Below, piece by piece: positions 1 through 41,090 of a DNA stretch of 64,000 nucleotides. Below the pieces are notes generated by a model. The model did no database searches. It saw only the letters and a program-made list of their open reading frames with translations, and was not told the origin of the DNA. The stretch comes from Verrucomicrobiia bacterium (lineage in GTDB: Bacteria; Verrucomicrobiota; Verrucomicrobiia; Limisphaerales; CAIMTB01). The position numbers and the translations under genes were made by a program. The stretch's first letter is position 1, and each line of letters begins with the position of its first letter. The DNA is taken from positions 78,114 to 142,113 of the forward strand of contig JAHCBA010000002.1 of NCBI GenBank assembly GCA_019634625.1, given 5' to 3'.

Positions 1-415
1 AGCCAGGGCCTGGCCTTGCGAGAAAGCCCGCCTGGGTGAAGTGCCGATCGGTGGTCAGGGCTTCGCGCACCCGGAGCTCCCGCATGACCACGAAGCTGGT
101 GCAGTCGGTAAAGGAATAGGTCTTGTCGCGATGGCGAAAGAACAGACCCCGTGCCTTGTCGGCACGGGCCAGCGTGATGGACTCCCAGCGCAGCCGCGCA
201 CTGCCTTCCACCTGTCGCCACCACGTCTCCGCGGCATCCAGTCCCAACCGCAGGCGCAGGAGCGTCAGGGTTTCATCCACCACGTAATCTGTCGTGAGAA
301 GCTGGGCGCCCGTTTCCAGCCACGCATCGCGCACCGTTACCGCCCTGGAGTGCGAAGGGTCGGCCTCATCGGCGCACGCCACCCAACCGGCCGTATCCAC
401 GAAAAGTGCCTTCAC
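1..415 (-). CDS. vapC: PIN-domain toxin (VapC family), 3' end cut by window edge
   Basis: Not in the ORF track: it runs off the window and starts with GTG at 415-413. My minus-strand translation is VKALFVDTAGWVACADEADPSHSRAVTVRDAWLETGAQLLTTDYVVDETLTLL...FTDCTSFVVMRELRVREALTTDRHFTQAGF, with PIN-like acidic positions (FVDT, DE, TTD). The start overlaps the antitoxin stop as GTGA (412-415). Confidence 0.75.
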   Translation of the reverse strand, partial: MKALFVDTAGWVACADEADPSHSRAVTVRDAWLETGAQLLTTDYVVDETLTLLRLRLGLDAAETWWRQVEGSARLRWESITLARADKARGLFFRHRDKTYSFTDCTSFVVMRELRVREALTTDRHFTQAGFLARPGPG

Positions 416-660
416 GCCGGGTAGAGCACGGCATCATGTTCCGACGCTGATCGCCCGTCGGTCGAGCGCCCCACGGCCTTGGCCCGGTAGAGCGGATCGG
501 ACTCCAGCCCTTCCCGGTCCTCGTCGGGCGCATCCAACGGGACCACCTGGAACGCGGGCCGGCTTCGATACAGTACGGTGAATCGGGCACCGCGCCGGAC
601 CTTCGCGACAACGTCGGGCAGCGTGGCACGGAGCTCCTTGGCGTTGATCACGATACTCAT
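412..660 (-). CDS. Phd/YefM-family antitoxin
   Basis: Internal ATG of ORF 412..762. MSIVINAKELRATLPDVVAKVRRGARFTVLYRSRPAFQVVPLD is a typical prevent-host-death N-terminus. There is a 4-nt overlap with the downstream PIN gene. Confidence 0.8.
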   Translation of the reverse strand: MSIVINAKELRATLPDVVAKVRRGARFTVLYRSRPAFQVVPLDAPDEDREGLESDPLYRAKAVGRSTDGRSASEHDAVLYPA

Positions 661-2568: not shown

Positions 2569-3378
2569 ATGAACAAGCGGGCCCATTCGGAGAATGAAAT
2601 CACCGGCACCTTGGGCGGATGGTTGAAGCCGCGTTCGTTCACTGGCTCATGCCGGCGGGGATTGCCCCGGGCGTTCACGTTGATCGAACTGCTGGTGGTC
2701 ATCGCCATCGTCGCAATACTGGCCGGCCTGCTCCTGCCGGCGATTTCACGCGCGAAGGCCAAGGCGCAATCCATCCACTGCCTGGGGAACGTCCGCCAGA
2801 TCGGATTGGGATTGCAGATGTATCTGGGCGACAACGGGAAGTATCCCCGAGCGGTCGAATCATCCATCTCGGTTGCCACGGGGGATCCGGTGGGACGTCC
2901 CTGGTACTATGCATTGCAGCCGTACACGACCCAGGTTTGGACGAATGCCCTCTACAAGTGCCCGTCGTATCGCGGCTCCACCTTTGAATCGGTCCCACGA
3001 ACGACACCTGGTCAGGGAACGCTCGTTTGGGCGCCCCACGGCGGCTACGGCTACAACGCACACGGGACAGGAGTAGAGCCGCTGGAATCGCTAACCCTGG
3101 GCCTCAGTCCGTCGATGAACATGGTGGTCTCTGAATCCCAGGTGATCGCACCGAGTGAAATGGTCGCCTTCAGCGAGGAAACAAGCGGCTATTTTATCCT
3201 GTCCGTCGGCCGTGGCAGGCCGCCCCAGTTGCACGGACGCACGGTCGTGACCGCCTTTTGCGATGGACGGGCTTCGATGGAGCCGACCCACCAACTGCAT
3301 GCCGCAACGCCCGAAGCCCGCCGGCGCTGGAACAGAGATCATCAACCTCACCCTGAGACCTGGGACGATCGACGATGA
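2569..3378 (+). CDS. Prepilin-type N-terminal cleavage/methylation domain protein with H-X9-DG motif
   Basis: Contains [23 protein letters not shown], the exact H-X9-DG motif [12 protein letters not shown], and an [11 protein letters not shown]-type tail. The start is uncertain; an in-frame TTG near 2623 is possible. Confidence 0.85.
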
Positions 3379-3402
3379 GAAGGCTCCAGGGTGGCCTTCT
3401 CC

Positions 3403-3467
3403 AGGCTCACATCTCTGATTCTGACAATTGGGAACACCCACACCCCGGCGCAGGCGCAAATGTCAAA
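3403..3467. repeat. Truncated, degenerate copy of palindromic element family A (A0)
   Basis: AGGCTCACATCTCTGATTCTGACAA resembles the family-A left arm. The core has CCCCGGCGCAGGCGCAAA. The right arm stops after TGTCAAA, where homology to the 416.. duplicate begins. Confidence 0.5.
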
Positions 3468-3485
3468 GCCGGGTGGAGCACGGCA

Positions 3486-3686
3486 TCATGTTCCGAGGCT
3501 GATCGCCCGTCGGTAGAGCGGATCGGACTCCAGCCCTTCCCGGTCCTCGTCGGGCGCATCCAACGGGACCACCTGGAACGCGGGCCGGCTTCGATACAGC
3601 ACGATGAATCGGGCACCGCGCCGGACCGGCGCGACAACTTCGGGCAGCGTGGCGCGGAGTTCCTTGGCGTTGATCACGATGCTCAT
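3486..3686 (-). pseudogene. Orphan Phd/YefM antitoxin paralogue with frameshifted C-terminus and no toxin gene
   Basis: MSIVINAKELRATLPEVVAPVRRGARFIVLYRSRPAFQVVPLDAPDEDREGLESDPLYR is near-identical to 412..660. A 26-nt deletion relative to copy 1 (copy-1 coords ~462-487) changes the tail to RAISLGT. Confidence 0.55.
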
Positions 3687-3833
3687 GGCAGGTTGATCTT
3701 GAGTTGAACCTTTGTCCGGGACAACACAGCTGCCCGGAAGCCTTCCCAAGCCCCCCGTGTGTTCTCGTCCTCGAACCCAAAGGCACACCTTTTCAAGCGC
3801 CGCCCGGACCTCCCATTCCCCGTGGGAACTGGA

Positions 3834-8274: not shown

Positions 8275-8294
8275 GAACGCCCACCCTTCCCTCG

Positions 8295-8401
8295 GTGCAT
8301 CCCCGACGTGTGGGTGCCGAGGCAACCCATCGGAGGGACGAGCTCCGCGAGTCCTCAATCCAACGCTCCACACTCCTGCGGCCTCGCGGAGCTCGTCCCG
8401 G
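8295..8401 (-). mobile_element. Family-B nested-hairpin MITE-like element, copy B1 (right part divergent)
   Basis: GTGCATCCCCGACGTGTGGGTGCCGAGG....GGAGGGACGAGCTCCGCGAGTCCTCAATCCAACGCTCCACACTCCTGCGGCCTCGCGGAGCTCGTCCC aligns by eye with the reverse complement of copies B2/B5. Confidence 0.6.
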
Positions 8402-8610: not shown

Positions 8611-8885
8611 GTACGCGGACGAGGGCTGCTGCAAGAACGTTAGAAGCACCCACTCAAGAGAAGTCTGGATGGGGCGCACCAAGGCGGGTCACCGCGGACC
8701 TCCCACTCAGCACAGACATCCTGCGAGCCTCACCCTCCATCCGGTCCCAGAAACCCGCAGGGTTTCCAGAGATTAGCCGGGGGTCGGGCCCGGCTCCGCG
8801 GGTTCGACCCCCGGACAGAAATCCCACCCCGCCCACGACCCCGCCAGGGGTCGCAGAACTCCTCCATTGGGACGGAGGCAATCAC

Positions 8886-8983
8886 GCTCGACCGTCCCGC
8901 CTCCGGCCACATCACCGCCCGAAGACCCATTCAATTCCCCCGGCGAGATTCCCTTCCGGACGCCCGAGTTGCTTCACCGCCCA
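8886..8983 (+). repeat. Family-C ~100-bp intergenic repeat, copy C1
   Basis: GCTCGACCGTCCCGCCTCCGGCCACATCACCGCCCGAAGAC...TCCCCCGGCGAGATTCCCTT...CTTCACCGCCC matches 21653-21748 with scattered substitutions. Both copies lie upstream of plus-strand genes. Confidence 0.6.
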
Positions 8984-9027
8984 CCTCCCTTGACCGCGCA
9001 AAGCGCACCGTACCATCCTTCGCTCTC

Positions 9028-16526: not shown

Positions 16527-16739
16527 GGCAGCGCGCAACGTGGCAGCGCCTGCCCTGGCGCCCCACGAAGACGAGGCGACCTTCGTTGAATGGGAGGCCG
16601 GGGGCAAGGCCCTCACCGGACCTGGGCCTGAGGTCTTGAAATCTGGGCGCAGGTTCCGCCGTCAACGCGACGCTTCGTGGCCATGGCGAGATCGGGGACC
16701 TTGGCGTGCGACGCACGACCGCCAGGGCCTTCCAGCCCG

Positions 16740-16897
16740 GTGCATTCCGGAGTTGTGGGTGAGGAGGGAACTCCGCTGAGGGGCGCTTCGGAGGGCCGAG
16801 TTCCACGAGGCCGCAACGGTGTGGAGCGTTGGGTTGAGGACTCGCAGAGCTCGTCCCTCCGATTCGCTTCCTTCTCACCCACAATTCCGGGATGCAC
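16740..16897 (+). mobile_element. Family-B nested-hairpin MITE-like element, full copy B2
   Basis: Outer inverted repeats are GTGCATTCCGGAGTTGTGGGTGAGGAGG / CCTTCTCACCCACAATTCCGGGATGCAC. The inner hairpin is CGGAGGGCCGAGTTCCACGAGGCC...GGACTCGCAGAGCTCGTCCCTCCG. Flanked by the direct repeat CTTCCAGCCCG (16729-16739 and 16900-16910). Confidence 0.7.
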
Positions 16898-20205: not shown

Positions 20206-21390
20206 ATGAGCCCGCCGGCGGCTACCGGCCGCGCCCGACTCCTGGACGTGCTGATTGTCGGGGCGGGCCCGGCAGGTTGCGCCACGGCCCTGGCCTTGCT
20301 TCGGGCGGGCGTTCAGGACGTCGCCCTCGTGACGCCGCCCGCTTCAACCGCCTGGCGACTCAGCGAGTCGGCCACGCCCGATGTGCCCGCCCTCCTCGCG
20401 CAATTGGGAGTCCGGATGCCTCCGGGGCACCACCCGTATCTGGGCAACCTCTCGGCCTGGGGAGAACCGATGAGACAGGACGACTTCGTCCGTCGCGGCC
20501 ATCCCCCCGGCTGGTTGGTGGACCGGAAGCGGTTCGACGACCAGTTGCGGGAAGCCACCGTCGCCGCGGGATCAGAACTCCTCCAGCCCTTCCGATTGCG
20601 GGAGGCAGTGCGCATCAGGAACGGCTGGAGCGTGACGTTGCAGCCGGTCGCTTCCACGCGTCCACCGGGCCCGCCTGTCACGCTGCAAACCCGTTTGCTG
20701 GTGGATGCCTCGGGACGCCGCGCCGCTCTCGCGCGAGGCCAGCTCGGGGCCAGACGTCAACGCATCGATGATCAGGTGGCCCTTGCCGCCCGAATTCCGG
20801 GGGCCCGACCGGCACGGATCGACGACTTGCTGGCCGGCCGCGTTCTGGTCGAAGCGGTGCCCTGCGGGTGGTGGTACGCCTCCGCCCCGCCGGATGGCCC
20901 GATGATGCTAAGCCTGATGACCGACATGGATCTGGCCCGGAATCTGCGGACACCCACTGCATGGCGGGAAGCCCTGGACCACACCCAGGTTCTCCAAGCC
21001 CTCGGCGTCCCGCCATCCGACACCGGTCAGGCACCCCCCGCGATCCGGACGTTCGCCGCGCAAAGCGGTTGTCTGGATCGTATCGCCGGGCCCGGCTGGC
21101 TCGCCGTCGGGGACGCCCTGATGAGCCTCGACCCACTCACTTCATCGGGCCTGTCCGGCGCGTTGCGCGATGGCATCGCGGCTGCGTCCGAGGTGTTGCT
21201 GCCCTGGCTCGAAGGCGCCTCACCGGGCACCGCCGGAAGGGCCTGGGGCAGACGTGCCAACCATGTCTGGCAGCGCTTTCTGGTCGAGCGTCGAGCCCGC
21301 TACGCCATGGTGTCCGACTGGCGCACGTCCCGGTACTGGCGGCGACGCCAGAGCGAATACGAGGCCAGTGCATCCCGGATTCTTCGGTAG
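20206..21390 (+). CDS. LodB-like FAD-dependent oxidoreductase (cofactor-maturation flavoprotein)
   Basis: LDVLIVGAGPAGCATALAL is an FAD GxGxxG fold, with a halogenase/monooxygenase-like GD motif in WLAVGDALMSLDPLTSSG. Positioned directly after the LodA-like gene. The last ~7 codons and the stop lie in element B3. Confidence 0.75.
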   Translation: MSPPAATGRARLLDVLIVGAGPAGCATALALLRAGVQDVALVTPPASTAWRLSESATPDVPALLAQLGVRMPPGHHPYLGNLSAWGEPMRQDDFVRRGHPPGWLVDRKRFDDQLREATVAAGSELLQPFRLREAVRIRNGWSVTLQPVASTRPPGPPVTLQTRLLVDASGRRAALARGQLGARRQRIDDQVALAARIPGARPARIDDLLAGRVLVEAVPCGWWYASAPPDGPMMLSLMTDMDLARNLRTPTAWREALDHTQVLQALGVPPSDTGQAPPAIRTFAAQSGCLDRIAGPGWLAVGDALMSLDPLTSSGLSGALRDGIAAASEVLLPWLEGASPGTAGRAWGRRANHVWQRFLVERRARYAMVSDWRTSRYWRRRQSEYEASASRILR

Positions 21391-21492
21391 AGTTGCGAAC
21401 TTCGCGAAGCGTCGCTTCGGAGGGCCGGGTGCCACGAGGCCGCAACCGTGTGGAGCGTTGGGTTGAGGACTCGTGGAACCCGGCCCTCCGAA
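21368..21492 (+). mobile_element. Family-B element, copy B3 (second outer arm missing or degenerate)
   Basis: GTGCATCCCGGATTCTTCGG...GCGAACTTCGCGAAGCG...CTTCGGAGGGCCGGGTGCCACGAGGCCGCAACCGTGTGGAGCGTTGGGTTGAGGACTCGTGGAACCCGGCCCTCCGAAG. Confidence 0.6.
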
Positions 21493-21652
21493 GTAAAGCG
21501 GAGAGGTGGGATCGGATGGACCGTTGGGTGTACACGCTTCAGCGTGAGCCTCCCAAATCCGCCCCGACACGCCAAAGCGTCTGACGTTTGGCCATTTGAC
21601 TGGCGAACCGGCGGGCCCCAAAGCGGCCCATCGGTTGACGCAGGGAAATCAG

Positions 21653-21748
21653 GCTCGACCGTCCCGCCTCCCGCCACACCACCACCCGAAGACTCGTTCA
21701 GCTCCCCCGGCGAAGTTCCCTTGCGAATGCCCGGGTTCCTTCACCCCC
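21653..21748 (+). repeat. Family-C intergenic repeat, copy C2
   Basis: GCTCGACCGTCCCGCCTCCCGCCACACCACCACCCGAAGAC...TCCCCCGGCGAAGTTCCCTT...CTTCACCCCCC. Followed by a small GCGTCTTC tandem at ~21758-21777. Confidence 0.6.
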
Positions 21749-21965
21749 CGCTTCCTTTGCGTCTTCGCGTCTTCGCGTGAGCACCAGGCGTCGCGTTGCA
21801 CCCTTCGATGAAACCGCCTCGCCGCATCCTCACGCCACGACCCAAAGACGCCAGGAATGCGCCGCCGCGCCGTAAGCCAAGGGCATCGCGGGATTGAGTT
21901 CCGCGTGCCGCCGTTCAAGCTCTTCCCGGCTGGCAGGCATCGCCCATCGCCCATCGCCCATCGTC

Positions 21966-22286
21966 ATGCGCCCCTTGGATCTACAGGTTGTCGGCAACGA
22001 ACTGGCCATCCGCTGGGAGGATGGCACGGAGAGCTTCATCCCCCTGGAAACCCTGCGCCGCCACTGCCCGTGTGCGAGCTGCGGCGGGGAACGCGACATC
22101 TTCGGCAACGTCTATCGCGGTCCCGAGCGACCCCTGACCCCGGCCGGGATGACCCTCGTCCGCCTGGAACCAGTGGGCGGCTACGCCGTGCAGCCGATCT
22201 GGGGCGACGGCCACAACACCGGCCTGTTCAGCTACGAGTACCTCCGTCGCCTGGGCGCCATGGCGTCATCGGGGTCAGATCTCTGA
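21966..22286 (+). CDS. DUF971 (gamma-butyrobetaine hydroxylase-like N-terminal domain) protein
   Basis: Internal ATG of ORF 21894. LAIRWEDGTESFIPLETLRRHCPCASCGGE and YAVQPIWGDGHNTGLFSYEYLR are typical DUF971 blocks. The last 5 codons and the stop come from element A1. Confidence 0.8.
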   Translation: MRPLDLQVVGNELAIRWEDGTESFIPLETLRRHCPCASCGGERDIFGNVYRGPERPLTPAGMTLVRLEPVGGYAVQPIWGDGHNTGLFSYEYLRRLGAMASSGSDL

Positions 22287-22351
22287 ATTTGACAATCTTG
22301 CCCCGCAGGGCGCGGTGCGACGGCCAATGTCAAAATCAGGGATCTGACCCC
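22271..22351. repeat. Family-A ~82-bp palindromic element, copy A1
   Basis: Left arm GGGGTCAGATCTCTGAATTTGACA, right arm TGTCAAAATCAGGGATCTGACCCC, core ..CCCCGCAGGGCGCGGTGCGACGGCC.. Confidence 0.85.
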
Positions 22352-22424
22352 GGGAGGCTTTCGTCCTTCCGCCGCAGCGACCCGCCATGCTAGCGTTGTT
22401 AGCACAACGGAGGACGCCATCGCC

Positions 22425-22661
22425 ATGCCACAGCTTCTGGTCAGACAGATTGAGGAGAAGGTCGTTCGAAAGCTCAAGGAGCGGGCCGGAAGGCATGGGG
22501 TCTCGATGGAGGAGGAGCACCGCCGAATCCTGCGCGAGGCCCTGCTCGGCTCGTCGGTGAAGGGCCGGTCGTTCAAGGACCACCTGCTCGCCATGCCCAA
22601 CGTGGGGGATGACGAGGACTTTTCCCGCGGGCCCCAGATCGAGCGGCCCGTTGAGCTATGA
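22425..22661 (+). CDS. FitA/VapB-type (RHH, plasmid-stability-like) antitoxin
   Basis: MPQLLVRQIEEKVVRKLKERAGRHGVSMEEEHRRILREAL is the Arc/RHH-like antitoxin pattern. There is a 4-nt overlap with the PIN gene. Confidence 0.8.
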   Translation: MPQLLVRQIEEKVVRKLKERAGRHGVSMEEEHRRILREALLGSSVKGRSFKDHLLAMPNVGDDEDFSRGPQIERPVEL

Positions 22662-23092
22662 GCGGCTTTCTGCTTGATACGAACCTCCTGAGCGAACTGC
22701 GCAAGGAGCAGCGTTGCGATGCGGGAGTGCGTCGATGGGTCGAAGGCACCTCCGCCGAAGCGATGTTTGTCAGTGTCGTGGTGCTCGGCGAGATCAGGCG
22801 GGGGGTCGAGCGAATCCGCCTGCGCGACCTCAAGCAGGCTCGGGCATTGGAGAAGTGGCTTCATGGCATCCCCACGGTGTTTTCGGACCGCGTGTTGCAC
22901 GTGGACGAGCGCGTCGCGGACCAGTGGGGACGCCTCGGCTCGCGCCAACCTGTACCGCCCGTCGACGCACTGTTGGCTGCGACGGCCCTGGTTCACGATC
23001 TGACGGTCGTCACCCGGGATGCGGATGGTTTTCGCAACACCGGGGCACGGGTGCTGAATCCGTTCACGTCAGGCTCAGATCTCCGAATTTGA
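22658..23092 (+). CDS. vapC: PIN-domain toxin (VapC/FitB type)
   Basis: FLLDTNLLSELRK, VVLGEIRRGV and DALLAATALVHDLTVVTRDADGF. The C-terminal SGSDLRI and the stop are encoded by element A2. Confidence 0.85.
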   Translation: MSGFLLDTNLLSELRKEQRCDAGVRRWVEGTSAEAMFVSVVVLGEIRRGVERIRLRDLKQARALEKWLHGIPTVFSDRVLHVDERVADQWGRLGSRQPVPPVDALLAATALVHDLTVVTRDADGFRNTGARVLNPFTSGSDLRI

Positions 23093-23152
23093 CCATCGGG
23101 ACCCGCAGGGCGCGGCGGGACGGCGAAATGTCAAATTCAGAGACTTGACCCC
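23071..23152. repeat. Family-A palindromic element, copy A2
   Basis: AGGCTCAGATCTCCGAATTTGACC ... core CCCGCAGGGCGCGGCGGGACGGCG ... TGTCAAATTCAGAGACTTGACCCC. Confidence 0.85.
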
Positions 23153-23205
23153 GAGAGGGGAAGATTTGTCCGGTTTGGCGCGCGACCGGCAGTATTCCGG
23201 GCGAG

Positions 23206-25755: not shown

Positions 25756-25831
25756 TTCTGCAGGCGCAGGCCAAGCCCCTGAATCCGTATCCGCGTCCCC
25801 GCGGCTCTGGCAGCGCGCATGTCCAGCTCCG

Positions 25832-25983
25832 GTGCATCCCGGAGTCGTGGTTGAGGAGGCAGCGAATTGGAGGGACGAACTCCGCGAGTTCTGACCCCAA
25901 CGCTCCCCACCGTTGCGGCCTCGTGGAACTCGGCGCTCCCCGCCGACGCTTCAAGAAGCCGGCACCTCTCCCCAAGTATCCAC
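25832..25983 (-). mobile_element. Family-B element, full copy B4 (inverted orientation)
   Basis: By eye it aligns end to end with the reverse complement of B5: GTGCATCCCGGAGTCGTGGTTGAGGAGGCAGCGAATTGGAGGGACGAACTCCGCGAG...GCGGCCTCGTGGAACTCGGCGCTCC...CACCTCTCCCCAAGTATCCAC. Confidence 0.7.
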
Positions 25984-26041
25984 TGAAAATGACGCCCTTT
26001 TGATGATGCCTTGACATCATTATTAGGTGATGCACGGTGGC

Positions 26042-26308
26042 ATGGTGCGTACCACCCTCACCCTCGATCCGGAAGTCGCCGACCGGTTGAAGCAGGAAGC
26101 CGCCTTGGGAAAGCGCTCTTTCAAGGTCATCGTCAATGAAGCGCTGCGAAAGGGGCTGGGCATGGAGGCGCCGCGGCGCGCGCCTCGATTCCGCGTCCAG
26201 CCCCACTCCTCCCGCCTGCAACCCGGCGTGGATCCGACCCGCCTGAATCAACTCGTGGATGAACTCGATGTGGAGGCCTTCGTGGCGAAGCAAGGACCCC
26301 GGACATGA
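26042..26308 (+). CDS. RHH/CopG-like antitoxin of a VapBC pair
   Basis: MVRTTLTLDPEVADRLKQEAALGKRSFKVIVNEALRKGL. The ORF-track start is 26027 and I prefer the ATG at 26042. ATGA-type overlap with the PIN gene. Confidence 0.75.
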   Translation: MVRTTLTLDPEVADRLKQEAALGKRSFKVIVNEALRKGLGMEAPRRAPRFRVQPHSSRLQPGVDPTRLNQLVDELDVEAFVAKQGPRT

Positions 26309-26742
26309 TCATTCCCGACGTCAATCTCCTCATCTACGCGTACAACGATCAGGCTCCGCAACACCTGCCGGCGAAGGAATGGTGGGAGAATCTGCTGAAC
26401 GGTCAGAGGCCGGTCGGGCTCCCTTGGATCACCATCAGCGGTTTCATCCGGCTCATCACTCATCCCCGAATCCTGGTTACCCCCCTTGATGTTCCGTCCA
26501 CCGTCCGCCACGTACGCGCGTGGCTGGCCCAACCCCCGGTCCGGGTCGTGTACCCCGGCTCCCGTTTCGAGCGACTATTCATGGACTATCTGATCCAGCT
26601 CGGAACGGCCGCCAATCTGACAACCGACGCCCAACTCGCCGCGCTTGCCGTGGAACATCAGGCCGAACTGCACAGCTCCGACCATGATTTCGCGCGATTC
26701 GACGGTCTTCGTTGGCTGAACCCATTGAAGGCCGGGGCCTGA
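26305..26742 (+). CDS. vapC: PIN-domain toxin (VapC family)
   Basis: MIIPDVNLLIYAYN (PIN Asp), ISGFIRLITHP, TTDAQLAALAVEHQAELHSSDHDFARF. Confidence 0.85.
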   Translation: MIIPDVNLLIYAYNDQAPQHLPAKEWWENLLNGQRPVGLPWITISGFIRLITHPRILVTPLDVPSTVRHVRAWLAQPPVRVVYPGSRFERLFMDYLIQLGTAANLTTDAQLAALAVEHQAELHSSDHDFARFDGLRWLNPLKAGA

Positions 26743-26751
26743 CTGATCATC

Positions 26752-26833
26752 GGGGTCAGATCTCTGAATTTGACATTTGCGAGCCTTCAGATCTGCCAGG
26801 AAGGCAAAATGTCAAATTCAGAGATCTGACCCC
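26752..26833. repeat. Family-A palindromic element, copy A3 (near-perfect long hairpin)
   Basis: GGGGTCAGATCTCTGAATTTGACATTTGCGAGCCTTC-AGATCTGCCAG-GAAGGCAAAATGTCAAATTCAGAGATCTGACCCC. Starts 10 nt after the vapC stop. Confidence 0.9.
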
Positions 26834-26840
26834 GACGCCT

Positions 26841-27539
26841 TCACGGCCAGGACCAGACCCAATCCATGGAACGTAAGGGGACGTCGGGGGAGTGCTCCAT
26901 CGAACCGTTGTCGTCCCGGGCATCGATGGCGAGAGACCATAGCCGGAACCGATCATTGGACTCCCGGGCATACCGCAAGGGCCGGCCGTCGATGGGATCC
27001 AAGGGTACGGAAGCGAACCCGGTGGGGACGAGGGCTTCGAGGCGCTCCGGATAGGTCCCTTCGGCAAGGCGATGGCGTTCGAGGACACACGCGGTCATGG
27101 CGAGACGGGCCTGGGCCTGGGCGCGGAGGGCCTGGGCCGGCGCCCTGGCCAGACTGCTGATGTAGGGTTCCTTCCCCGGACTGAGGGCCGCCCGATACAG
27201 CCGGTAACGGGAAGAGGCGGAAGGCGCCGGGGGAGGCCAGGAAGCGATGAGGGAATGCTGTTGATCCGCGGGGGTCGTCTCCAGTTGACGCAATGCTCCC
27301 GAGAAAGCGGCGGCGCTGGCATACAACCAACCCCTTGGAGCCGAGGAGAGGTAGAGGTCACTCAGAGGGGCGTTGGCAGTCCCTTGACGGTCAGGACTGG
27401 GCTCGAACCGCCCGACCATCGTGCGTCGTCCCTCCGCAGAATCGAGAATGGTGCGAACGACTTCCAAGAAGCCACAGCGTTCGCCCGCGACAGCGCGTTG
27501 CAGGCCGGGATGCAGGTCCACATTTCTGAATCGAACCAA
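26841..27539 (-). CDS. Hypothetical protein, probably 5'-truncated
   Basis: 232-aa ORF with a TTG start and no signal peptide. The C-terminal LDPIDGRPLRYARESNDRFRLWSLAIDARDDNG resembles tails of secreted pseudopilin-like proteins from this phylum. Bracketed by A3 and half-copy A4. Confidence 0.45.
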   Translation of the reverse strand: MVRFRNVDLHPGLQRAVAGERCGFLEVVRTILDSAEGRRTMVGRFEPSPDRQGTANAPLSDLYLSSAPRGWLYASAAAFSGALRQLETTPADQQHSLIASWPPPAPSASSRYRLYRAALSPGKEPYISSLARAPAQALRAQAQARLAMTACVLERHRLAEGTYPERLEALVPTGFASVPLDPIDGRPLRYARESNDRFRLWSLAIDARDDNGSMEHSPDVPLRSMDWVWSWP

Positions 27540-27560
27540 TGGGAAGGGCTGGACCGTCGC

Positions 27561-27595
27561 GCGAAGGCAAATGTCAAATTCAGAGATCTGACCCC
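27561..27595. repeat. Family-A element, right-half copy A4
   Basis: GCGAAGGCAAATGTCAAATTCAGAGATCTGACCCC matches the right half of A3. No left arm is present. Confidence 0.75.
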
Positions 27596-27605
27596 GGTGA
27601 GTCGC

Positions 27606-28382
27606 CTACGCATCAATCCAGACCAGTTCCGGCGGGCAGAGGAACCGGACGTTGAGGTGGAAGGTCCCGATGCCGCTGCTGACATAGAGGGGCCCGGCCG
27701 GGGTGTCGTACCGGCCCCATTCGTAGCGACCGACCCCGGAAGGCTTGGCCAGCGCGCCGAAGAACGGGAGCCGAACCTGGCCACCATGGGAATGCCCGGC
27801 GAGGATGAGGTCGTACCCGACCGGCAGTCGCTCGACCCATTTCGGGTAATGGATGAGCGCGAAGTTCTTCTGGTTGGGTTCGGGCGGCAGCACGACATCG
27901 GTCTGGCAGGTGTGGCCGTTGACCCGGACGTGACCCCGCCCGGCCCCGACAGGGACCCTCGCACTGGCATCGAGCAGCCAGTCGCCGCCGGTTCGCCTCA
28001 GCGCCTCCCCGATGCGGTCGAAGTCGGAACCGCTCCAGTAGTCGTGGTTGCCGGGAACGCCGAAAATGGGGAGGCCCGCCCTGCCCAGGGCCTCCAGGGC
28101 GGCGTCGAGGTGGTCGGCCTTCTCGACAAGATCCCCACCGAACAAGGCGAACTCGGGGCGCATGGCGCGAAGCCGGCTGACCACCCGGTTGAGAAGTCGG
28201 GGATCTCCCTTGAAATGGAGATCGGTGAAGTAGGCGAAGCGTACGGTAGGCCGGTCGGAGAGCCGAAGCCGCCGTTCCCGCAATCGGCGCGGCTCGATGC
28301 CGAAGGCGTACCCGGCCACCAGCGGAGGCCCCCCGTAGAGCAGGGCCCGCAACCAGGCGCGACGAGTGCCGATCAGGGACAT
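27606..28382 (-). CDS. Metallophosphoesterase (YkuE-like)
   Basis: FGGDLV, VPGNHDYW and LILAGHSHGGQVRLP. I prefer the internal start at 28382 (MSLIGTRRAWLRALL); the ORF track extends to 28466. Confidence 0.85.
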   Translation of the reverse strand: MSLIGTRRAWLRALLYGGPPLVAGYAFGIEPRRLRERRLRLSDRPTVRFAYFTDLHFKGDPRLLNRVVSRLRAMRPEFALFGGDLVEKADHLDAALEALGRAGLPIFGVPGNHDYWSGSDFDRIGEALRRTGGDWLLDASARVPVGAGRGHVRVNGHTCQTDVVLPPEPNQKNFALIHYPKWVERLPVGYDLILAGHSHGGQVRLPFFGALAKPSGVGRYEWGRYDTPAGPLYVSSGIGTFHLNVRFLCPPELVWIDA

Positions 28383-28455
28383 GGCAGGAGGCAGGCTGCG
28401 TTCGTACCGGACGTCTGGAGATTGGGCATTCTGGGGTCGGATCTCTCCACGCGTT

Positions 28456-30177
28456 TTAGTGGGCAACCACGCGGGGTCCTGACCCCGCCACCAACTCCAC
28501 TTCGCGCAGGGGGCGCAGGGCGATCATGGCCCGGCGGAGGAGGCGGTATCCCGTTTCCCCCAGGCGCCAGCGGGCGGCCAGGTTGGCGGCCCGCCGGTCG
28601 TAGCCGTAACGCCGCACCGCGAGGTGTTCCATGCGCCAGCCAAGGGTGGTGACCAGGTTCCCCAACGACTGGGCCGTCCAGTGGAACAGATGCCGGTTGG
28701 GATCGTCGGGACGGTACCGGGCGTGGCGGCGTTCCACTTCCCAGGGGACATGGAGAATCAGGCGTCCGCCCGGCTTGAGGATGCGCCCGAGCTGTCTCAG
28801 CGCCCCGGCCGGATCGATCAGGTGTTCGAGGGTCTGATGGCAGATCGCCACGTCGGCGATGGCTTCGGGAACAATCTCTGGATCGTCGAGGAACTCGATG
28901 CCAAGGGCGGTCACCGTCCCGGCGAGGAAGGTCGAGACATCGGCACCCAGCCGACGCGCGCAGGGAAGACGCGCGAGGTTCCAACCCGCTCCCACGCCCA
29001 GTTCGAAGACCGTGTGGTGGGGCTCCACCCAGGGACGGAACTTCTCCGCACGAAGCCGGTACACCCACTCGGTGGCGGTCGGATCCAAGCCCCGCTTGCC
29101 TTTGTGGTAGGCGCGGCCGGGTTCACCCTGGTAGGCGTGCGATGCCGCATCGGGCGCGGCTTGATCGCCGGGCGAGGCGGGGGTGGGTGCTTCGGGGCTG
29201 GGTGGCGGTTCACTGGCCGGTGGGGCCGCCACCCCGGTACCGGGTTCACGGCGGGTGAGTTCTTCGAGCCAGGGCGGATCGCAACCGGCCCGGCTGCAGG
29301 TGACCGCGGCCGCCTCCGCCGCGAATCGCAGCATCGCCTCGAGGTCTGCCGGCACCAGGTCGCGCACGCCGTCCGGACGCCAGCGTTCCCGCGTTCCCAG
29401 CCAGGCGAGGAGTCCGGCCTGAAAGGTGTCGCCGGCGCCGACCGTATCGATCACCTGCACGTCGGGCGGCGGAACACTCACGCGGTGCTGTCGTGTCCAT
29501 GCCGTCGATCCCTCCCCGCCGCGGGTCAGCACGACGAGGCCGGCACCCCGGTCGAGGTATTGCCGGACCACGGGTTCCGGTTCGGTGCCGGGATGCAGCC
29601 ATTCGAGATCCTCGAGACTGAGCTTCACCATGTCCGCGCGTTCGAGGAGACGCCGGTAGCGCCCGAGGAACGCCTCGCGGTCAGGGATCAGGAAGGGCCG
29701 GATGTTGGGATCGAGGGAGACGAGGCGCCCGGCGGCCTGTTGGACCAGGGTTTCGAGGGCGGTACCGAACGATTCGAGGGCGAGCGAGAACGAGCCGACG
29801 TGCACCGCGCGGATGGCTTCGGGGAAAGGTTCGGGCAGGTCGGTCGCCTCGAGCGCGCAACCCGCCGTGCCCTCGGTGTAGAAGGCGTACCGGGCGCTCT
29901 GAAGGGCGTCGTCCCACGTCACCCAGCCCAGCGTGGACAACGCTTCCGTGCTCGGACAGCCGTCCAGATCGACATGGCTGGCTTCGAGCAGGCGCCGTTG
30001 CCGCTGGCCGCAGGCGTCGGTCGAGAACCGGCAGAGGAACCGGACCGGTTGTCGAAGGCGTCCGAGGGCCAGCGCGACATTGAACGGCGATCCGCCCGGG
30101 ACCGGATGGAGCCTAGGCGTCCGGTCGTCGCCGACGGGGAGGAGATCGATGAGCGCTTCGCCGGCAACGAGGATCAT
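28456..30177 (-). CDS. Fusion protein: PfkB-family carbohydrate kinase + class I SAM-dependent methyltransferase
   Basis: The N-terminal half has MILVAGEALIDLLP and DTVGAGDTFQAGLLAWL (PfkB signatures). A Pro-rich linker follows. The C-terminal half has VFELGVGAGWN and LKPGGRLILHVP (methyltransferase motifs I and post-I). Confidence 0.8.
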   Translation of the reverse strand: MILVAGEALIDLLPVGDDRTPRLHPVPGGSPFNVALALGRLRQPVRFLCRFSTDACGQRQRRLLEASHVDLDGCPSTEALSTLGWVTWDDALQSARYAFYTEGTAGCALEATDLPEPFPEAIRAVHVGSFSLALESFGTALETLVQQAAGRLVSLDPNIRPFLIPDREAFLGRYRRLLERADMVKLSLEDLEWLHPGTEPEPVVRQYLDRGAGLVVLTRGGEGSTAWTRQHRVSVPPPDVQVIDTVGAGDTFQAGLLAWLGTRERWRPDGVRDLVPADLEAMLRFAAEAAAVTCSRAGCDPPWLEELTRREPGTGVAAPPASEPPPSPEAPTPASPGDQAAPDAASHAYQGEPGRAYHKGKRGLDPTATEWVYRLRAEKFRPWVEPHHTVFELGVGAGWNLARLPCARRLGADVSTFLAGTVTALGIEFLDDPEIVPEAIADVAICHQTLEHLIDPAGALRQLGRILKPGGRLILHVPWEVERRHARYRPDDPNRHLFHWTAQSLGNLVTTLGWRMEHLAVRRYGYDRRAANLAARWRLGETGYRLLRRAMIALRPLREVELVAGSGPRVVAH

Positions 30178-35472: not shown

Positions 35473-36999
35473 TCAGCCTTCAGCCCTGGCAAACGCTTCG
35501 GCCAAGGCCAGGGCCTGGCGCATGGCCTTCGACTTGTTCACCGTCTCCGCGAACTCCCCTTCCGGAGTGGAATCGTGCACCCAGCCCCCACCCGCCTGGA
35601 CGTAGGCCGTGCCATCTTTCAACAGCGCCGTCCGGATCGTGATGCACGAATCGAGGTTCCCGTTGAAGCCGAAGTACCCCACGCACCCCCCGTAGGGTCC
35701 GCGCGTGCTCTGTTCCAGCTCCGAAATGATCTGCATGGCCCGGATCTTCGGGGCGCCACTCAAGGTTCCCGCCGGGAACGTGGCCCGCATCAGATCGTAC
35801 GGAGACCGGCCTGCGCTCAGTCGCCCCACCACCTCGGAGACGATGTGCATCACGTGGCTGTACCGCTCGATCACCATGAGGTCCCGGACCTCCACTGTCC
35901 CGAAATCGCAGACCCGTCCGACGTCGTTCCGGGCCAGATCGATGAGCATCACGTGCTCGGCCCGTTCCTTGGGGTCCGCGAGCAGTTCCGCTTCGAGCGC
36001 CCGATCCTCTTCGGGTGTCCGGCCGCGCCGCCGGGTGCCGGCAATCGGGCGGATCTCAACCTGGCCGTGCTCGCACCGCACATGAATTTCCGGAGAAGCG
36101 CCCACCAGTGCGAACCCCTCCAGTTCGAGAAGGAACAGGTACGGCGACGGATTGATCGAGCGCACCGCCCGGTACACATCCAGCGGCGTGGCCGTCACCG
36201 GCCCGCTGAACCGCTGCGAACCCACCACCTGGAAGATGTCCCCGGTCCGGATGTACTCCTTGGCCCGAACGACGTTGGCATGGAACCGCTCCGGGTCCTG
36301 GTTCGAGACGAAGGGCATCTCCGGGGCGTCTTCCTCGAAGGAAACCGGCCTGCCCTGGATCGGCTGCTCGAGCAGGGACACCAGTCGCTCGATTTCGGCC
36401 ACCGCATCGTCGTACGCCTCCTCCACCCCGGCCCCGTCGAGACTTGCATTCACAATCACCGTCAACGTCTGGGCCACGCGGTCGAACACCAGCACCTCAT
36501 CGGCGATCAGGAAATAGAGGGTTGGCGTCCCCAGTTCGTCCCGTTCCGGCCGCGGCACCACCGGCTCGATATCGTGAACGAACTCGTACCCCAGGAACCC
36601 GATCGCCCCGCCCGTGAACCGTGGCAGATCCGGCACTTCCACCGCCCGGTACCGCCCCATCACCCGCTCCACCACCGCCAGTCCATCCGGGACCGTTTCC
36701 CCCTCCGCCGGAGCCCCGGGGACCACCTTGAACGTCTCCCGCGGACGGCCCTGCTCGAGGACGTCCACCCGGTCGCCCCGCTGCCGGACCACCGCCTTCG
36801 GACTGCACCCGACGAAGGAATAGCGGCCGAGGTGTTCGCCTCCCTCCACCGACTCGAACAGGAAGGACTCGCCCTGCCCCCGGATCTTTGCGTAGGCGGA
36901 CAGCGGGGTCTCGAAATCGGCCAGGAGACGCCTCCGGACAGGGATCAGGTTCCCTTGGGAGGCCAGGGCACGAAACGCCTCACGCGACGGTTGATACAT
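35473..36999 (-). CDS. trpE: Anthranilate synthase component I
   Basis: GNLIPVRRRLLADFETPLSAY, FLFESVEGGE, IAGTRRRG, LMVIERYSHVMHIVS and GTLSGAPKIRAMQII. Start is at 36999 (MYQPS); ATG 37059 is the alternative. Confidence 0.9.
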   Translation of the reverse strand: MYQPSREAFRALASQGNLIPVRRRLLADFETPLSAYAKIRGQGESFLFESVEGGEHLGRYSFVGCSPKAVVRQRGDRVDVLEQGRPRETFKVVPGAPAEGETVPDGLAVVERVMGRYRAVEVPDLPRFTGGAIGFLGYEFVHDIEPVVPRPERDELGTPTLYFLIADEVLVFDRVAQTLTVIVNASLDGAGVEEAYDDAVAEIERLVSLLEQPIQGRPVSFEEDAPEMPFVSNQDPERFHANVVRAKEYIRTGDIFQVVGSQRFSGPVTATPLDVYRAVRSINPSPYLFLLELEGFALVGASPEIHVRCEHGQVEIRPIAGTRRRGRTPEEDRALEAELLADPKERAEHVMLIDLARNDVGRVCDFGTVEVRDLMVIERYSHVMHIVSEVVGRLSAGRSPYDLMRATFPAGTLSGAPKIRAMQIISELEQSTRGPYGGCVGYFGFNGNLDSCITIRTALLKDGTAYVQAGGGWVHDSTPEGEFAETVNKSKAMRQALALAEAFARAEG

Positions 37000-37070
37000 G
37001 GCGCGCGGACTGTATGGGCAAGGCCCCTCCGCGGGAAATCGCGAAACCGCGATCCCCATGTGGGTCGGCT

Positions 37071-37454
37071 CAAATAGTCAGGCATTTCAAATAGTCAGGC
37101 ATTTAATTTGTTGTCGTTGTCAATTAGTCAGGCGCTTTATTTGTTGACGTTGTTGATCAATTCGTCAGGCACATAGTTTGTTGTCCTAGTTCATACGAGC
37201 CCATTTCTCCCCAATTCCCATTCCCTCGGGCCGCCGTGGACGATCCCTCCGCTCCGCCTTTGCCTTCGTTGTATTGGCATCCGTCAATTAGTCAGGCGCT
37301 TTATTTGTTGACGTTGTTGATCAATTCGTCAGGCACATAGTTTGTTGTCCTAGTTCATACGAGCCCATTTCTCCCCAATTCCCATTCCCATTCCCTCGGG
37401 CCGCCGTGGACGATCCCTCCGCTCCGCCTTTGCCTTCGTTGTATTGGCATCCGT
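37071..37454. repeat. AT-rich iteron-like array (GTCAGGC x6) including a 164/170-bp tandem duplication
   Basis: GTCAGGC occurs at 37077, 37094, 37127, 37164, 37291 and 37328, each in the context CAAWTMGTCAGGC....TTTGTTG. Units 37121-37284 and 37285-37454 are near-identical and differ by one extra CCCATT. Confidence 0.9.
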
Positions 37455-41033: not shown

Positions 41034-41090
41034 GCCCGCCAATGGTAACAGCAGGGGTCTGACCCCAGGACCCGGTGGATCCCGGGGGCA

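What the first reader, a model, noticed from the sequence alone, without database searches (positions are those of the whole stretch)
22271..23152. An ~82-bp palindromic element (family A) follows every PIN toxin gene, and one VapBC pair is bracketed by two copies
Copies are A1 22271-22351, A2 23071-23152, A3 26752-26833, half copy A4 27561-27595 and truncated A0 3403-3467. A full copy has 24-nt arms GGGGTCAGATCTCTGAATTTGACA / TGTCAAATTCAGAGATCTGACCCC around a ~33-nt core that can also pair. A1 and A2 share CCCGCAGGGCGCGG, and the A3 core extends the stem. A2 begins inside the last codons of vapC 22658..23092. A3 begins 10 nt after vapC 26305..26742. A0 abuts the remnant of the phd/vapC duplicate. 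A1 and A2 delimit a 0.88-kb unit containing only an antitoxin-toxin pair. This looks like a cassette boundary: a recombination site, a MITE pair, or a structured 3' end co-inherited with the toxin. I do not recognise it as a described element.
Basis: partly seen in the sequence, partly recalled or inferred. Interest (0 to 1): 0.7.

Follow-up and report, generated by a model that had tools for sequence, protein, structure and literature searches.

The report
Transposon-like palindromic repeats at gene ends
Five copies of an ~85-bp hairpin-forming repeat sit within 25 bases of the stop codons of five genes (two are PIN toxin genes) in a verrucomicrobial chromosome; its arms resemble the inverted-repeat ends of a tyrosine-transposase element from another verrucomicrobial contig, so it is most likely a new, lineage-private example of a known kind of miniature mobile repeat and not a toxin-specific signal.

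Summary
The repeat family is real. The 24-nt arm occurs 6 times at up to 3 mismatches against 0 expected, and a profile search finds exactly five copies (A0-A4). A4 is a full-length copy with a decayed left arm, not a half copy. All five copies lie 0-25 nt from a stop codon, but only two follow PIN genes. The others follow a DUF971 gene, a pseudopilin-like gene and a metallophosphoesterase gene.

The vapBC-1 pair is bracketed exactly. This FitAB-like cassette is 83% identical in DNA to one on a distant contig and 70-88% in protein to many metagenome proteins. In the six other contexts where I could read sequence beside the same cassette, none carries the element. A2 replaced the native last seven codons of vapC. 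A co-inherited toxin 3' end is therefore refuted.

The arms begin GGGGTCAG, which fits the published GGGGWSAS motif of inverted repeats flanking RAYT-like Y1 transposase genes. They match 18/24 positions of the inverted repeats of such an element beside a homologous vapBC cassette on another contig.

Best reading: inverted dimers of a Y1-transposase terminal repeat (REPIN/MITE-like). The genome-wide distribution and the partner transposase could not be checked. The cassette carries flanking direct repeats in several genomes, so a role in cassette capture stays open.

The parts
3403..3467 (+). A0: left arm (GGCTCACATCTCTGATTCTGACA), spacer, and the first ~10 nt of the right arm. It is truncated at the junction with a duplicated phd segment.
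   Evidence: nhmmer E = 2.4e-17. It lies 25 nt after the stop of gene 2569..3378.
22266..22356 (+). A1: full dimer with arms 22271-22294 and 22328-22351 (2 mismatches) and a 33-nt spacer containing CCCGCAGGGCGCGG.
   Evidence: The arm supplies the codons SSGSDL and the TGA stop of the DUF971 gene.
23066..23157 (+). A2: full dimer that is decaying. The left arm is GGCTCAGATCTCCGAATTTGACC with a 2-nt deletion. Its spacer is 79% identical to A1's.
   Evidence: The left arm encodes the last codons (SGSDLRI) and the stop of vapC-1.
26747..26838 (+). A3: perfect dimer with 29-nt arms that are 100% complementary (26750-26778 / 26807-26835). Its spacer is unrelated to A1's (13/34).
   Evidence: (I16). 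It lies between the convergent stops of vapC-2 (26742) and ORF 26841..27539.
27513..27602 (+). A4: full-length copy with a perfect right arm (27572-27595) and a decayed left arm (about 27513-27545). Its spacer is closest to A0's (20/34).
   Evidence: It lies 10 nt from the stop of the metallophosphoesterase gene 27606..28466 (minus strand).
22425..23092 (+). vapBC-1: a FitA-like RHH antitoxin (22425..22661) and a PIN toxin (22658..23092). This is a horizontally mobile cassette bracketed by A1 and A2.
   Evidence: PF22513, PF01850; 83% nt identity to L012, with homology confined to about 22352-23066.
26027..26742 (+). vapBC-2: an RHH antitoxin (26027..26308) and a PIN toxin (26305..26742). It is bounded on the left by a family-B palindrome (25830-25981) and on the right by A3.
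   Evidence: (TIGR00028, E = 6.6e-38).
21894..22286 (+). DUF971 / GBBH-like_N gene whose 3' end runs into A1.
   Evidence: PF06155, E = 1.4e-21; the domain ends at residue 118 of 130.
26841..27539 (-). 232-aa ORF with no family hit, bracketed by A3 and A4. A4's decayed left arm overlaps its 5' end.
   Evidence: GC3 = 0.72.
2569..3378 (+). Pseudopilin-like gene (N_methyl motif) followed by A0.
   Evidence: PF07963.
3486..3788 (-). phd remnant, the second copy of a ~480-bp duplication. Its PIN partner is missing and the junction lies inside A0's right arm.
27606..28466 (-). Metallophosphoesterase gene whose stop lies 10 nt from A4.
   Evidence: PF00149.

Best explanation
Family A is a small, lineage-private family of non-autonomous palindromic repeats. 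Each copy is an inverted (head-to-head) dimer of a 24-29-nt terminal-inverted-repeat unit, (TCAYC)GGGGTCAGATCTCTGAATTTGACA, separated by a ~30-nt spacer that is poorly conserved.

The unit belongs to the class of long inverted repeats that flank RAYT-like Y1 (HUH) tyrosine-transposase genes. The literature calls these elements 'TIRtrons' and their transposases 'TIRYT'.

I infer that such a transposase, encoded elsewhere in the genome or now lost, copied the units or dimers through single-stranded hairpin intermediates. That would explain the absence of target-site duplications. Copies persist where they do least harm, which is immediately after stop codons. In one reading frame the arm itself supplies a stop after 5-6 codons (S-G-S-D-L-stop). 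This explains how A1 and A2 could overwrite the last codons of the DUF971 gene and of vapC without killing either gene.

The link with PIN genes is not specific. TA cassettes and these repeats accumulate in the same short variable stretch (21.4-27.6 kb), which also holds two family-B palindromes.

The A1/A2 bracket reflects duplication of one particular dimer, because the two share a spacer. The duplication arose either when the dimer was copied to the next gene end or when the mobile vapBC cassette integrated.

Shown here: the copies, their anatomy and their gene-end positions; the mobility of the cassette; the replacement of the vapC tail; the resemblance to a Y1-element TIR.

Inferred: mobilisation by a Y1 transposase, and any effect on RNA.
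For: Existence and anatomy.

- The arms are nearly invariant: the A1 and A3 left arms match 24/24, and the A3 and A4 right arms match 24/24. The spacers fall into groups: A1-A2 27/34, A0-A4 20/34, A1-A3 13/34.
- Single arms do not fold (z about 0); only dimers do.
- No flanking target-site duplication is seen at any copy (sequences).
- All five copies lie 0-25 nt from a stop codon.
- A second palindromic family, B, has three of six copies starting at or within 20 nt of a stop. Gene-end palindromes are therefore a general habit of this genome.

Link to Y1 elements:
- On L029 (ENA contig k141_1539446) a ~1.42-kb element is bounded by 27-nt inverted repeats, CAATGGGGTCACATCTAGATCTTTGAC / GTCAAAGGTTGAGACTCGACCCCATTG.
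- Its frameshift-corrected ORF hits PF01797 Y1_Tnp (E = 5.3e-8, 33.5 bits against a cut-off of 23). Its only NCBIfam hit is NF047646, REP-associated tyrosine transposase (E = 6.8e-17).
- A weight matrix built only from the window's arms was scanned over 133 kb of other loci. Its three best hits are exactly the three TIR arms of L029 (19.4, 19.4 and 14.7 bits; the next best is 9.1).
- 18/24 identity to the consensus is expected 0.043 times in 148 kb.
- The arm start GGGGTCAG fits the consensus GGGGWSAS that PMC3733652 reports for TIRs flanking TIRYT genes. That paper also reports such TIRs as moderately abundant singles, dimers and clusters, mostly downstream of coding regions.

Not toxin-specific:
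- Three of the five copies follow non-PIN genes.
- The same cassette lacks the element in the six other contexts where an adjacent flank could be read.
- The native vapC tail was replaced.
- A2 and the left arm of A4 are decaying without compensatory changes.
Against: - No Y1 or any other transposase, integrase or recombinase gene lies in the 64-kb window. The rest of the source genome could not be read.
- The similarity to the L029 repeats covers mainly the outer GGGGTCA.ATCT and the inner TTTGACA. The central 5-6 positions differ. The two best-matching L029 arms are paralogues of each other, so they count as one observation.
- The family seems to be low-copy. The exact arm gave no hit in the genome collection, though a control pattern from family B also gave none there, so the source genome is evidently not searchable. 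A word search for the peptides that read-through of the arms would encode found one candidate among 5.8 billion protein clusters, and it did not score. Classical REPIN families have tens to hundreds of copies.
- Four of the five copies touch a TA module or its remnant, and both complete TA pairs are bounded by palindromes. That is more than a random scatter over gene ends would give: roughly p = 0.01 for both complete PIN genes being among the five tagged genes out of ~48, ignoring clustering.
- The native vapC 3' end is not found beyond A2. The A2 junction is therefore a replacement, not a simple insertion.
Confidence: 0.58

Rival explanations
1. Cassette-capture site. The A dimer acts as a landing pad or recombination substrate for small mobile modules. 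A circular vapBC intermediate carrying one dimer, or one that invaded beside a dimer, integrated by a single crossover. This left direct copies A1 and A2 on either side. The same element then marks other rearrangement junctions. A would work like an att/attC-type or PeSL-type boundary, whether or not it is also transposon-derived.
For: - Cassette homology to L012 and L029 begins within about 10 nt of A1's inner edge and ends at A2's inner edge.
- A1 and A2 are direct copies that share a spacer absent from A3, A4 and A0.
- The same FitAB-like cassette is flanked by host-specific direct repeats elsewhere. L012 has a 23-nt exact repeat. L034 has a ~230-nt duplication at about 80% identity that includes the 3' end of the upstream gene. 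L029 has GGGGTCAC-type TIR arms on both sides.
- A0's right arm is the exact breakpoint of a segmental duplication.
- The vapC tail was replaced rather than interrupted.
- Precedent: PeSL promoter/stem-loop repeats bracket and shuffle small gene cassettes in T4-type phages (PMC2839356).
Against: - There is no recombinase gene in the window.
- The dimers are almost perfectly symmetric, without the asymmetry or extrahelical bases that give directional sites their polarity.
- L014 has no flanking repeat of 9 nt or more.
- The flanking repeats in other genomes are unrelated in sequence and very different in length (23 to ~230 nt). This argues for a property of the cassette's integration, or of homologous recombination, and not of the A element.
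- A1 and A2 differ at about 20% of positions, so the event is old and its polarity cannot be read.
Confidence: 0.22
2. Functional 3'-end hairpin. The elements are kept because the transcribed hairpin ends or stabilises the upstream mRNA, or because a stem this close to the stop codon modulates translation termination, as reported for REP sequences in E. coli. On this reading their repeat nature is secondary.
For: - All five copies lie within 25 nt of a stop codon.
- A1 and A3 form very stable stems.
- Family B shows a similar placement at three of its six copies.
- PMC3733652 notes that REP-type repeats lie mostly downstream of coding regions and are probably transcribed.
Against: - No T-run follows any copy, and the terminator scan does not pick the elements out above background (5 found against 4.8 expected).
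- A2, and the left arms of A4 and A0, have decayed by uncompensated mismatches. The stem is therefore not under consistent selection.
- Orthologous genes elsewhere do without the element.
- No expression data exist.
Confidence: 0.12
3. Integron-type attC sites of a cassette array that lacks its integrase (a CALIN).
For: The palindromes are imperfect and of attC-like length, and they begin at or just after cassette stop codons. TA cassettes are common in chromosomal integrons (established knowledge).
Against: - No RYYYAAC...GTTRRRY core sites occur in or beside any copy (sequences).
- The stems are perfectly paired, without extrahelical bases.
- The copies are not arranged as a co-oriented cassette array: A2 and A3 are separated by 3.6 kb that includes a sigma-factor gene, and ORF 26841..27539 is reversed.
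- No IntI gene is present.
Confidence: 0.02
4. A structured element that belongs to the toxin gene and travels with it, for example a cis-regulatory RNA or a VapC target.
For: Two copies directly follow PIN genes, and one abuts a TA remnant.
Against: - Homologous cassettes at 70-88% protein identity lack the element.
- A2 overwrote the conserved vapC tail.
- Three copies follow unrelated genes.
Confidence: 0.02

Closest known systems
TIR repeats of TIR-associated tyrosine transposases ('TIRtrons'/TIRYT; Di Nocera et al. 2013, PMC3733652)
   Same: - Long (about 25-30 nt) inverted-repeat units whose outer end fits GGGGWSAS.
- They occur as singles and inverted dimers in intergenic DNA downstream of genes, in modest copy number.
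- They are related to the repeats flanking a RAYT-like Y1 transposase gene.
- An element of this type with similar repeats was found here on L029.
   Different: - The cognate transposase gene flanked by the A arm has not been seen in this genome.
- The A sequence itself matches nothing in the collections searched.
- The link with TA cassettes has not been described for this class.
REPINs / REP sequences mobilised by RAYTs (Bertels & Rainey 2011, PMC3116915)
   Same: - An inverted doublet forms a long hairpin of about 80-100 nt.
- Decayed single arms occur.
- The location is extragenic and there are no target-site duplications.
- A Y1/HUH transposase is the presumed mobiliser.
   Different: - Each REP unit is itself a short imperfect palindrome carrying a GTAG (or CGTC) tag. 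The A arm does not fold on its own and has no such tag inside the unit.
- REPIN populations usually number tens to hundreds. Here five copies are known, and indirect evidence suggests few more.
Bacterial MITEs (Correia/NEMIS, ERIC, RUP, Nezha)
   Same: A 70-300-bp non-coding element with 15-30-bp terminal inverted repeats, inserted next to or overlapping gene ends, transcribed into a stable hairpin.
   Different: Classical MITEs derive from DDE insertion sequences and leave short target-site duplications. None is visible at any A copy.
Integron attC sites / CALINs
   Same: An imperfect palindrome placed at the 3' boundary of small, promoter-poor cassettes that often encode TA pairs.
   Different: The A copies have no R''/R' core sites, no extrahelical bases, no array architecture and no integrase nearby.
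PeSL promoter/stem-loop cassettes of T4-type phages (PMC2839356, PMC4122927)
   Same: Repeated ~70-bp stem-loop motifs bracket single small genes and act as recombination points that move them as cassettes.
   Different: PeSLs are phage regulatory motifs with a functional early promoter. No promoter-like site is detected at A, and recombination at A has not been shown.
pdif (XerC/XerD) modules of Acinetobacter plasmids (own knowledge; not checked against a paper here)
   Same: Small modules, several of them TA pairs, are bounded by short palindromic recombination sites.
   Different: The A arms do not have the 11-6-11 Xer site architecture. The setting is a chromosome, not a plasmid, and no Xer dependence is known.

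Membership tests
TIRYT-associated TIR repeats (TIRtron class) | The outer end of the repeat unit fits the motif GGGGWSAS. | tested here: met
   GGGGTCAG is present in five of the ten arms. The right arm of A2 reads GGGGTCAA, which misses the last position of the motif. Variants GGCTCAG and GGCTCAC occur in the A2 and A0 left arms. The motif is as quoted from PMC3733652.
TIRYT-associated TIR repeats (TIRtron class) | The same repeat flanks a Y1 (IS200-like, RAYT-like) transposase gene in the same genome. | not testable with these tools
   No such gene lies in the window. The rest of the source MAG could not be retrieved.
TIRYT-associated TIR repeats (TIRtron class) | Related repeats flank a Y1 transposase gene in some genome. 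| tested here: met
   L029 has 27-nt TIRs around an ORF that hits PF01797 (E = 5.3e-8) and NF047646 (E = 6.8e-17). These arms are the top three hits of the A-arm matrix in 133 kb, with 18/24 identity against 0.043 expected.
TIRYT-associated TIR repeats (TIRtron class) | Copies are dispersed as singles, dimers or clusters, mostly downstream of coding regions. | tested here: met
   There are five dimers, all 0-25 nt from a stop codon.
Classical REP / REPIN | Each unit is a 20-40-nt imperfect palindrome (a stem-loop on its own). | tested here: not met
   The single arm folds no better than shuffles (-1.3 kcal/mol, z = 0.05).
Classical REP / REPIN | A GTAG or CGTC tetranucleotide tag at one end of the unit. 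| tested here: inconclusive
   No GTAG is present. CGTC occurs just outside the arm at A1 (GGCGTCATCGGGG), at A2 (CACGTCAGGC) and, as GACG, on the right of A3. It is not in a fixed register.
Classical REP / REPIN | Tens to hundreds of copies per genome. | not testable with these tools
   Only 64 kb is available. The indirect negatives hint at low copy number but are not decisive, because the control for genome presence failed.
MITE (DDE-type) | Terminal inverted repeats of 15-30 bp on a non-coding element shorter than 300 bp. | tested here: met
   Arms of 24-29 nt on an ~85-bp element (I16).
MITE (DDE-type) | A short direct target-site duplication flanks each copy. | tested here: not met
   The flanks of A1-A4 share no direct repeat: TCATC|...|GGGAG, CGTCA|...|GAGAG, TCATC|...|GACGC.
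Integron attC | R'' RYYYAAC and R' GTTRRRY core sites, with extrahelical bases in the folded strand. | tested here: not met
   The motifs are absent from all copies and their flanks. The stems are fully paired in A3.
Integron attC | An adjacent integron integrase or a co-oriented cassette array. | tested here: not met
   There is no integrase, and the spacing and gene orientations are irregular.
Rfam RNA families | A score at or above a family's gathering threshold. | tested here: not met
   0 matches in the whole window.

The most novel reading that the evidence does not exclude
The inverted dimers, or the Y1 transposase that recognises their arms, are the vehicle or landing pad by which a promiscuous FitAB-type vapBC cassette moves between and within verrucomicrobial genomes. 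On this reading the A1-vapBC-A2 block is a composite, non-autonomous unit that can excise as a circle and reinsert at other dimers. The direct repeats that flank the same cassette in other genomes would be scars of the same process. This would give a concrete mechanism for the unexplained mobility of naked chromosomal TA cassettes.
Probability: 0.15. Interest if true: 0.65.

Novelty: new member of a known kind. Interest (0 to 1): 0.36.

Why it matters
Taken alone, the element adds a Verrucomicrobiae example to the little-studied 'TIR repeat' branch of REP-like elements. It also shows how such a repeat can overwrite gene ends harmlessly, because the arm carries an in-frame stop.

The more useful lead is the cassette. 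A 0.7-kb FitAB-like TA pair is 83% identical in DNA between genomes whose sigma-factor genes reach at most 54% protein identity. In four of the five contexts where both flanks could be read, it is bracketed by direct repeats or by transposase-type inverted repeats. How chromosomal TA pairs that carry no mobility gene spread so widely is an open question. These loci offer junctions that can be tested directly in metagenomic reads.

Tried and rejected
1. Searches for the exact or degenerate arm in public collections found nothing real.
   - Genome contigs: 0 hits.
   - Metagenome contigs: 10 hits, all chance. None has the GGGG prefix or a partner arm, and their GC is 34-59%.
   - Viral contigs: 4 chance hits.
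   - plasmids by blastn: only E >= 3.

2. Control for whether the source genome is in genome contigs. A family-B core pattern that matches 5 of 6 window copies also gave 0 hits. The negative therefore says nothing about copy number.

3. Walking out of the window by exact-protein look-up.
   - The edge proteins are not on record.
Only a 5.8-kb Logan contig, identical to the window, is served.

4. Orthologous-region comparison. The nearest sigma-factor homologue is 54% identical and there is no synteny. A 45% homologue from GCA_019634635.1 has neither A nor B elements.

5. Word search for the peptides that read-through of the arms would encode (GVRSLNLTF, MSNSEI, RGQISEFD, NVKFRDLTP, CQIQRSDP): one candidate, which did not score.

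6. Promoter idea. The arm's inner end is TTGACA, but no promoter-like site was found.

7. Intrinsic-terminator idea. There is no T-run and the scan is at background level.

8. Possible sixth copy at 41032-41068 (D7). The family profile does not detect it, so I rejected it.

9. Tn3-type inverted repeat (GGGGTCTGA...TAAG, from memory). Only the first 9 nt are alike, with no 5-bp target duplication and no inner TAAG, so I rejected it.

10. Xer/dif-like architecture, rejected by inspection.

11. Literature search for TA cassettes linked to REPIN/RAYT elements or flanked by direct repeats found nothing specific.
Full report
**1. The observation**

The 24-nt arm GGGGTCAGATCTCTGAATTTGACA occurs six times in the window at up to 3 mismatches, against 0.00 expected from shuffles. 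The inner 13-mer occurs eight times against 0.57 expected.

A profile built from the five aligned copies finds exactly those five in the 64 kb:
- A0, about 3395-3473
- A1, 22263-22359
- A2, 23063-23159
- A3, 26745-26839
- A4, 27513-27602

A4 is therefore a full-length copy. Its left arm has decayed and resembles A0's left arm (TCACATYTCTGA). It is not a half copy.

A1 and A3 fold into long hairpins as RNA (-53.4 and -58.7 kcal/mol; z = -7.2 and -11.5) and as DNA. A2 has six uncompensated arm mismatches (z = -2.5). A0 is truncated. Rfam has no match anywhere in the window, and there are no tRNA genes.

**2. Surroundings**

The window is ordinary chromosome from a high-GC (66%) member of the Verrucomicrobiae. 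It carries trpE, purD, glyA, rho, a PQQ dehydrogenase, PSD1/DUF1501 pairs and VPDSG-CTERM proteins. It has no transposase, integrase or recombinase gene.

The source is an NCBI MAG with a 307-kb contig. Only a 5.8-kb Logan contig, identical to the window, could be fetched.

Every A copy lies 0-25 nt from a stop codon:
- A0 lies 25 nt after a pseudopilin-like gene.
- A1 overlaps the stop of a DUF971 gene.
- A2 overlaps the stop of vapC-1.
- A3 lies 10 nt after vapC-2 and 7 nt from the stop of a convergent ORF.
- A4 lies 10 nt after a metallophosphoesterase gene.

So the element follows both complete PIN genes but also three unrelated genes. A third PIN gene runs off the left edge of the window.

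A second palindromic family, B (~150 nt, six copies), has three of its copies starting at or within 20 nt of a stop codon. One B copy bounds vapBC-2 on its left. Gene-end palindromes are thus a general feature of this genome.

**3. Anatomy**

The arms are almost invariant, while the ~33-nt spacers fall into groups: A1-A2 27/34, A0-A4 20/34, A1-A3 13/34. A single arm does not fold. Only the dimer makes a hairpin.

No copy has a flanking target-site duplication. The palindrome extends a few bases outward, as TCAYCGGGG...CCCCGRTGA (I13, I16, I17).

In one reading frame the arm reads S-G-S-D-L-stop. That is the frame in which both the DUF971 gene and vapC-1 enter it.

No sigma-70-like promoter or intrinsic-terminator signature accompanies the copies.

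**4. The toxin-antitoxin cassette**

VapC-1 has thousands of homologues at 70-88% identity. The neighbouring sigma factor reaches only 54%. The pair therefore moves horizontally.

Homologues end ...NPFS-KPKPAGN. The window's protein ends ...NPFT-SGSDLRI, encoded by A2's left arm. The displaced native end is not found beyond A2.

DNA homology to the cassette on L012 is 83%. It starts just inside A1 and stops at A2.

Sequence beside the cassette could be read in six other contexts. Both flanks were read in L012, L014, L029 and L034; the 3' flank only was read in L013 and L027. None has an A element. This refutes the idea of a structure inherited with the toxin gene.

**5. What the arms resemble**

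On L029 a homologous vapBC (74% identity) is followed by a ~1.42-kb element with 27-nt inverted repeats. Its frameshift-corrected ORF hits Y1_Tnp (PF01797, E = 5.3e-8). Its only NCBIfam hit is REP-associated tyrosine transposase (E = 6.8e-17, below the equivalog cut-off).

A further copy of the left repeat, followed by a truncated second Y1 gene and a PIN remnant, lies upstream of the same vapBC.

A matrix built from the window's arms alone ranks these three L029 arms first, second and third among 133 kb of unrelated loci. Their 18/24 identity is expected 0.043 times by chance. Each hit is also in register with a transposon end.

Di Nocera et al. describe exactly this class. RAYT-like genes are flanked by long inverted repeats that share GGGGWSAS, and those repeats also occur as moderately abundant singles and dimers (PMC3733652). 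GGGGTCAG fits the motif.

**6. Mechanism I commit to**

Family A consists of inverted dimers of a Y1-transposase terminal repeat. I take it to be copied through single-stranded hairpin intermediates by a transposase encoded elsewhere or since lost. Copies survive at gene ends, where the in-frame stop makes insertion cheap.

This part is inference. What is shown is the anatomy, the placement, the decay of some copies and the sequence relationship.

The PIN association is best read as co-accumulation in one variable stretch (21.4-27.6 kb). That stretch also holds two B copies, a third repeat family and two TA pairs.

**7. What remains open**

A1 and A2 share a spacer, so one is a copy of the other. 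Either the dimer was copied to the next gene end, or the cassette's integration duplicated it.

The second option gains weight from other loci:
- L012 has a 23-nt exact direct repeat around the cassette.
- L034 has a ~230-nt flanking duplication that includes the end of the upstream gene.
- L029 has transposon arms on both sides.
- L014 has no flanking repeat.

A0 also marks the exact breakpoint of a segmental duplication that lost a PIN gene.

I could not test genome-wide distribution. The arm and a control pattern from family B both gave no hit in the genome collection. The metagenome hits were chance. A search for arm-encoded peptide words found nothing, which hints at low copy number.

**8. 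Verdict**

This is a real, previously unrecorded repeat family of a known kind. It is not toxin-specific and not an attC site. The TA cassette's recurrent flanking repeats are the part worth following up.

Noticed in passing
window 8293-8399, 16738-16897, 21377-21533, 25830-25981, 61618-61767, 63778-63859: A second repeat family (B). It is a ~150-nt nested palindrome with the conserved core CGAGGCCGCAnnnGTGKGGAGCGTTGG and has six copies. Three copies start at or within 20 nt of a stop codon (DUF1501 gene, FAD oxidoreductase, rho). One sits between divergent genes. One bounds vapBC-2 on the left. There is no match in genome contigs.
   Followed up: partly
window 416-890 and 3467-3950: A ~480-bp segmental duplication (about 94% identical) carries a phd antitoxin gene and its upstream region. 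Copy 1 keeps its PIN toxin gene (2..421, minus strand). Copy 2 has lost it, and the junction falls inside A0's right arm. Copy 2's phd also has a 26-nt deletion.
   Followed up: partly
window 810-889 and 3834-3945: Heptanucleotide tandem arrays, (TCAGGTT)x11 and (TCTCAGG)x16, lie at the far end of both copies of that duplication. They sit upstream of the likely true start of a PSD1/DUF1553 gene. They could be slipped-strand (phase-variable) tracts.
   Followed up: no
window 37070-37454: A 164-nt unit is repeated twice at 96% identity, with shorter 17- and 33-nt repeats (TCAAATAGTCAGGCA...). It lies immediately upstream of trpE (35473..37059, minus strand). No Rfam family matches.
   Followed up: no
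window 8877-8992 and 21644-21759: A third dispersed repeat, 116 nt at 83% identity. In both places it lies a few hundred bases from a family-B copy. The Logan contig breaks inside it.
   Followed up: no
window 22326-22351, 23127-23152, 26808-26833, 27570-27595: The right half of every A copy keeps an asymmetric GGC(N0-2)AAATGTCAAA. In A1-A4 this gives a six-codon mini-ORF: ATG TCA AAT TCA GAG ATC TGA (MSNSEI) in A3 and A4, MSKSGI in A1 and MSNSET in A2. GAAGG precedes it in A3 and A4. A0 is cut off before it can be read. The left arm has no equivalent conservation. It may be a transposase-recognition asymmetry and not a coding feature.
   Followed up: no
L012 5581-5603 and 6433-6455; L034 3411-3640 and 4565-4790: The same FitAB-like vapBC cassette is bracketed by host-specific direct repeats in other genomes. 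L012 has a 23-nt exact repeat, AAAGACCGGTCCCTTTGGATCCA. L034 has a ~230-nt duplication at about 80% identity that includes the last ~66 nt of the upstream nuoB-like gene, plus 30-nt inverted repeats just inside it.
   Followed up: partly
L013 508-1389; L027 697-3195; L028 726-962: In L013 and L027 the stop codon of the homologous vapC is followed directly by a brxC/pglY gene of a BREX defence system (PADLOC BrxC, E = 2.6e-139 and E = 0). This places the TA pair at the head of a defence locus. L028 has the same gene layout, but its downstream ORF was not scanned.
   Followed up: partly
L029 1998-2050 and 243-560: The outer end of the Y1 element's left repeat is tandemly duplicated (CGAAAGGCAATGGG x3). 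A second left-repeat copy, followed by a truncated Y1 gene and a PIN C-terminal remnant, lies upstream of the vapBC. A further GGGGTCGGTTCTTG... inverted pair sits at 320 and 856.
   Followed up: partly
L036 488-546 and 4283-4347; L037 3222-3280: A phage contig (IMGVR_UViG_3300031578_001908; portal and capsid genes) carries two intergenic copies of a 59-65-nt palindrome, GGGGTCAAATCTTTATTnTTGACAA...TTGTCAAnAATAAAGATTTGACCCC. It was found with the generalised arm pattern. Its outer end is also tandemly duplicated (CGCGAAGGGGTC x2). Whether it is homologous to family A or merely a similar GC-clamped hairpin was not resolved.
   Followed up: partly
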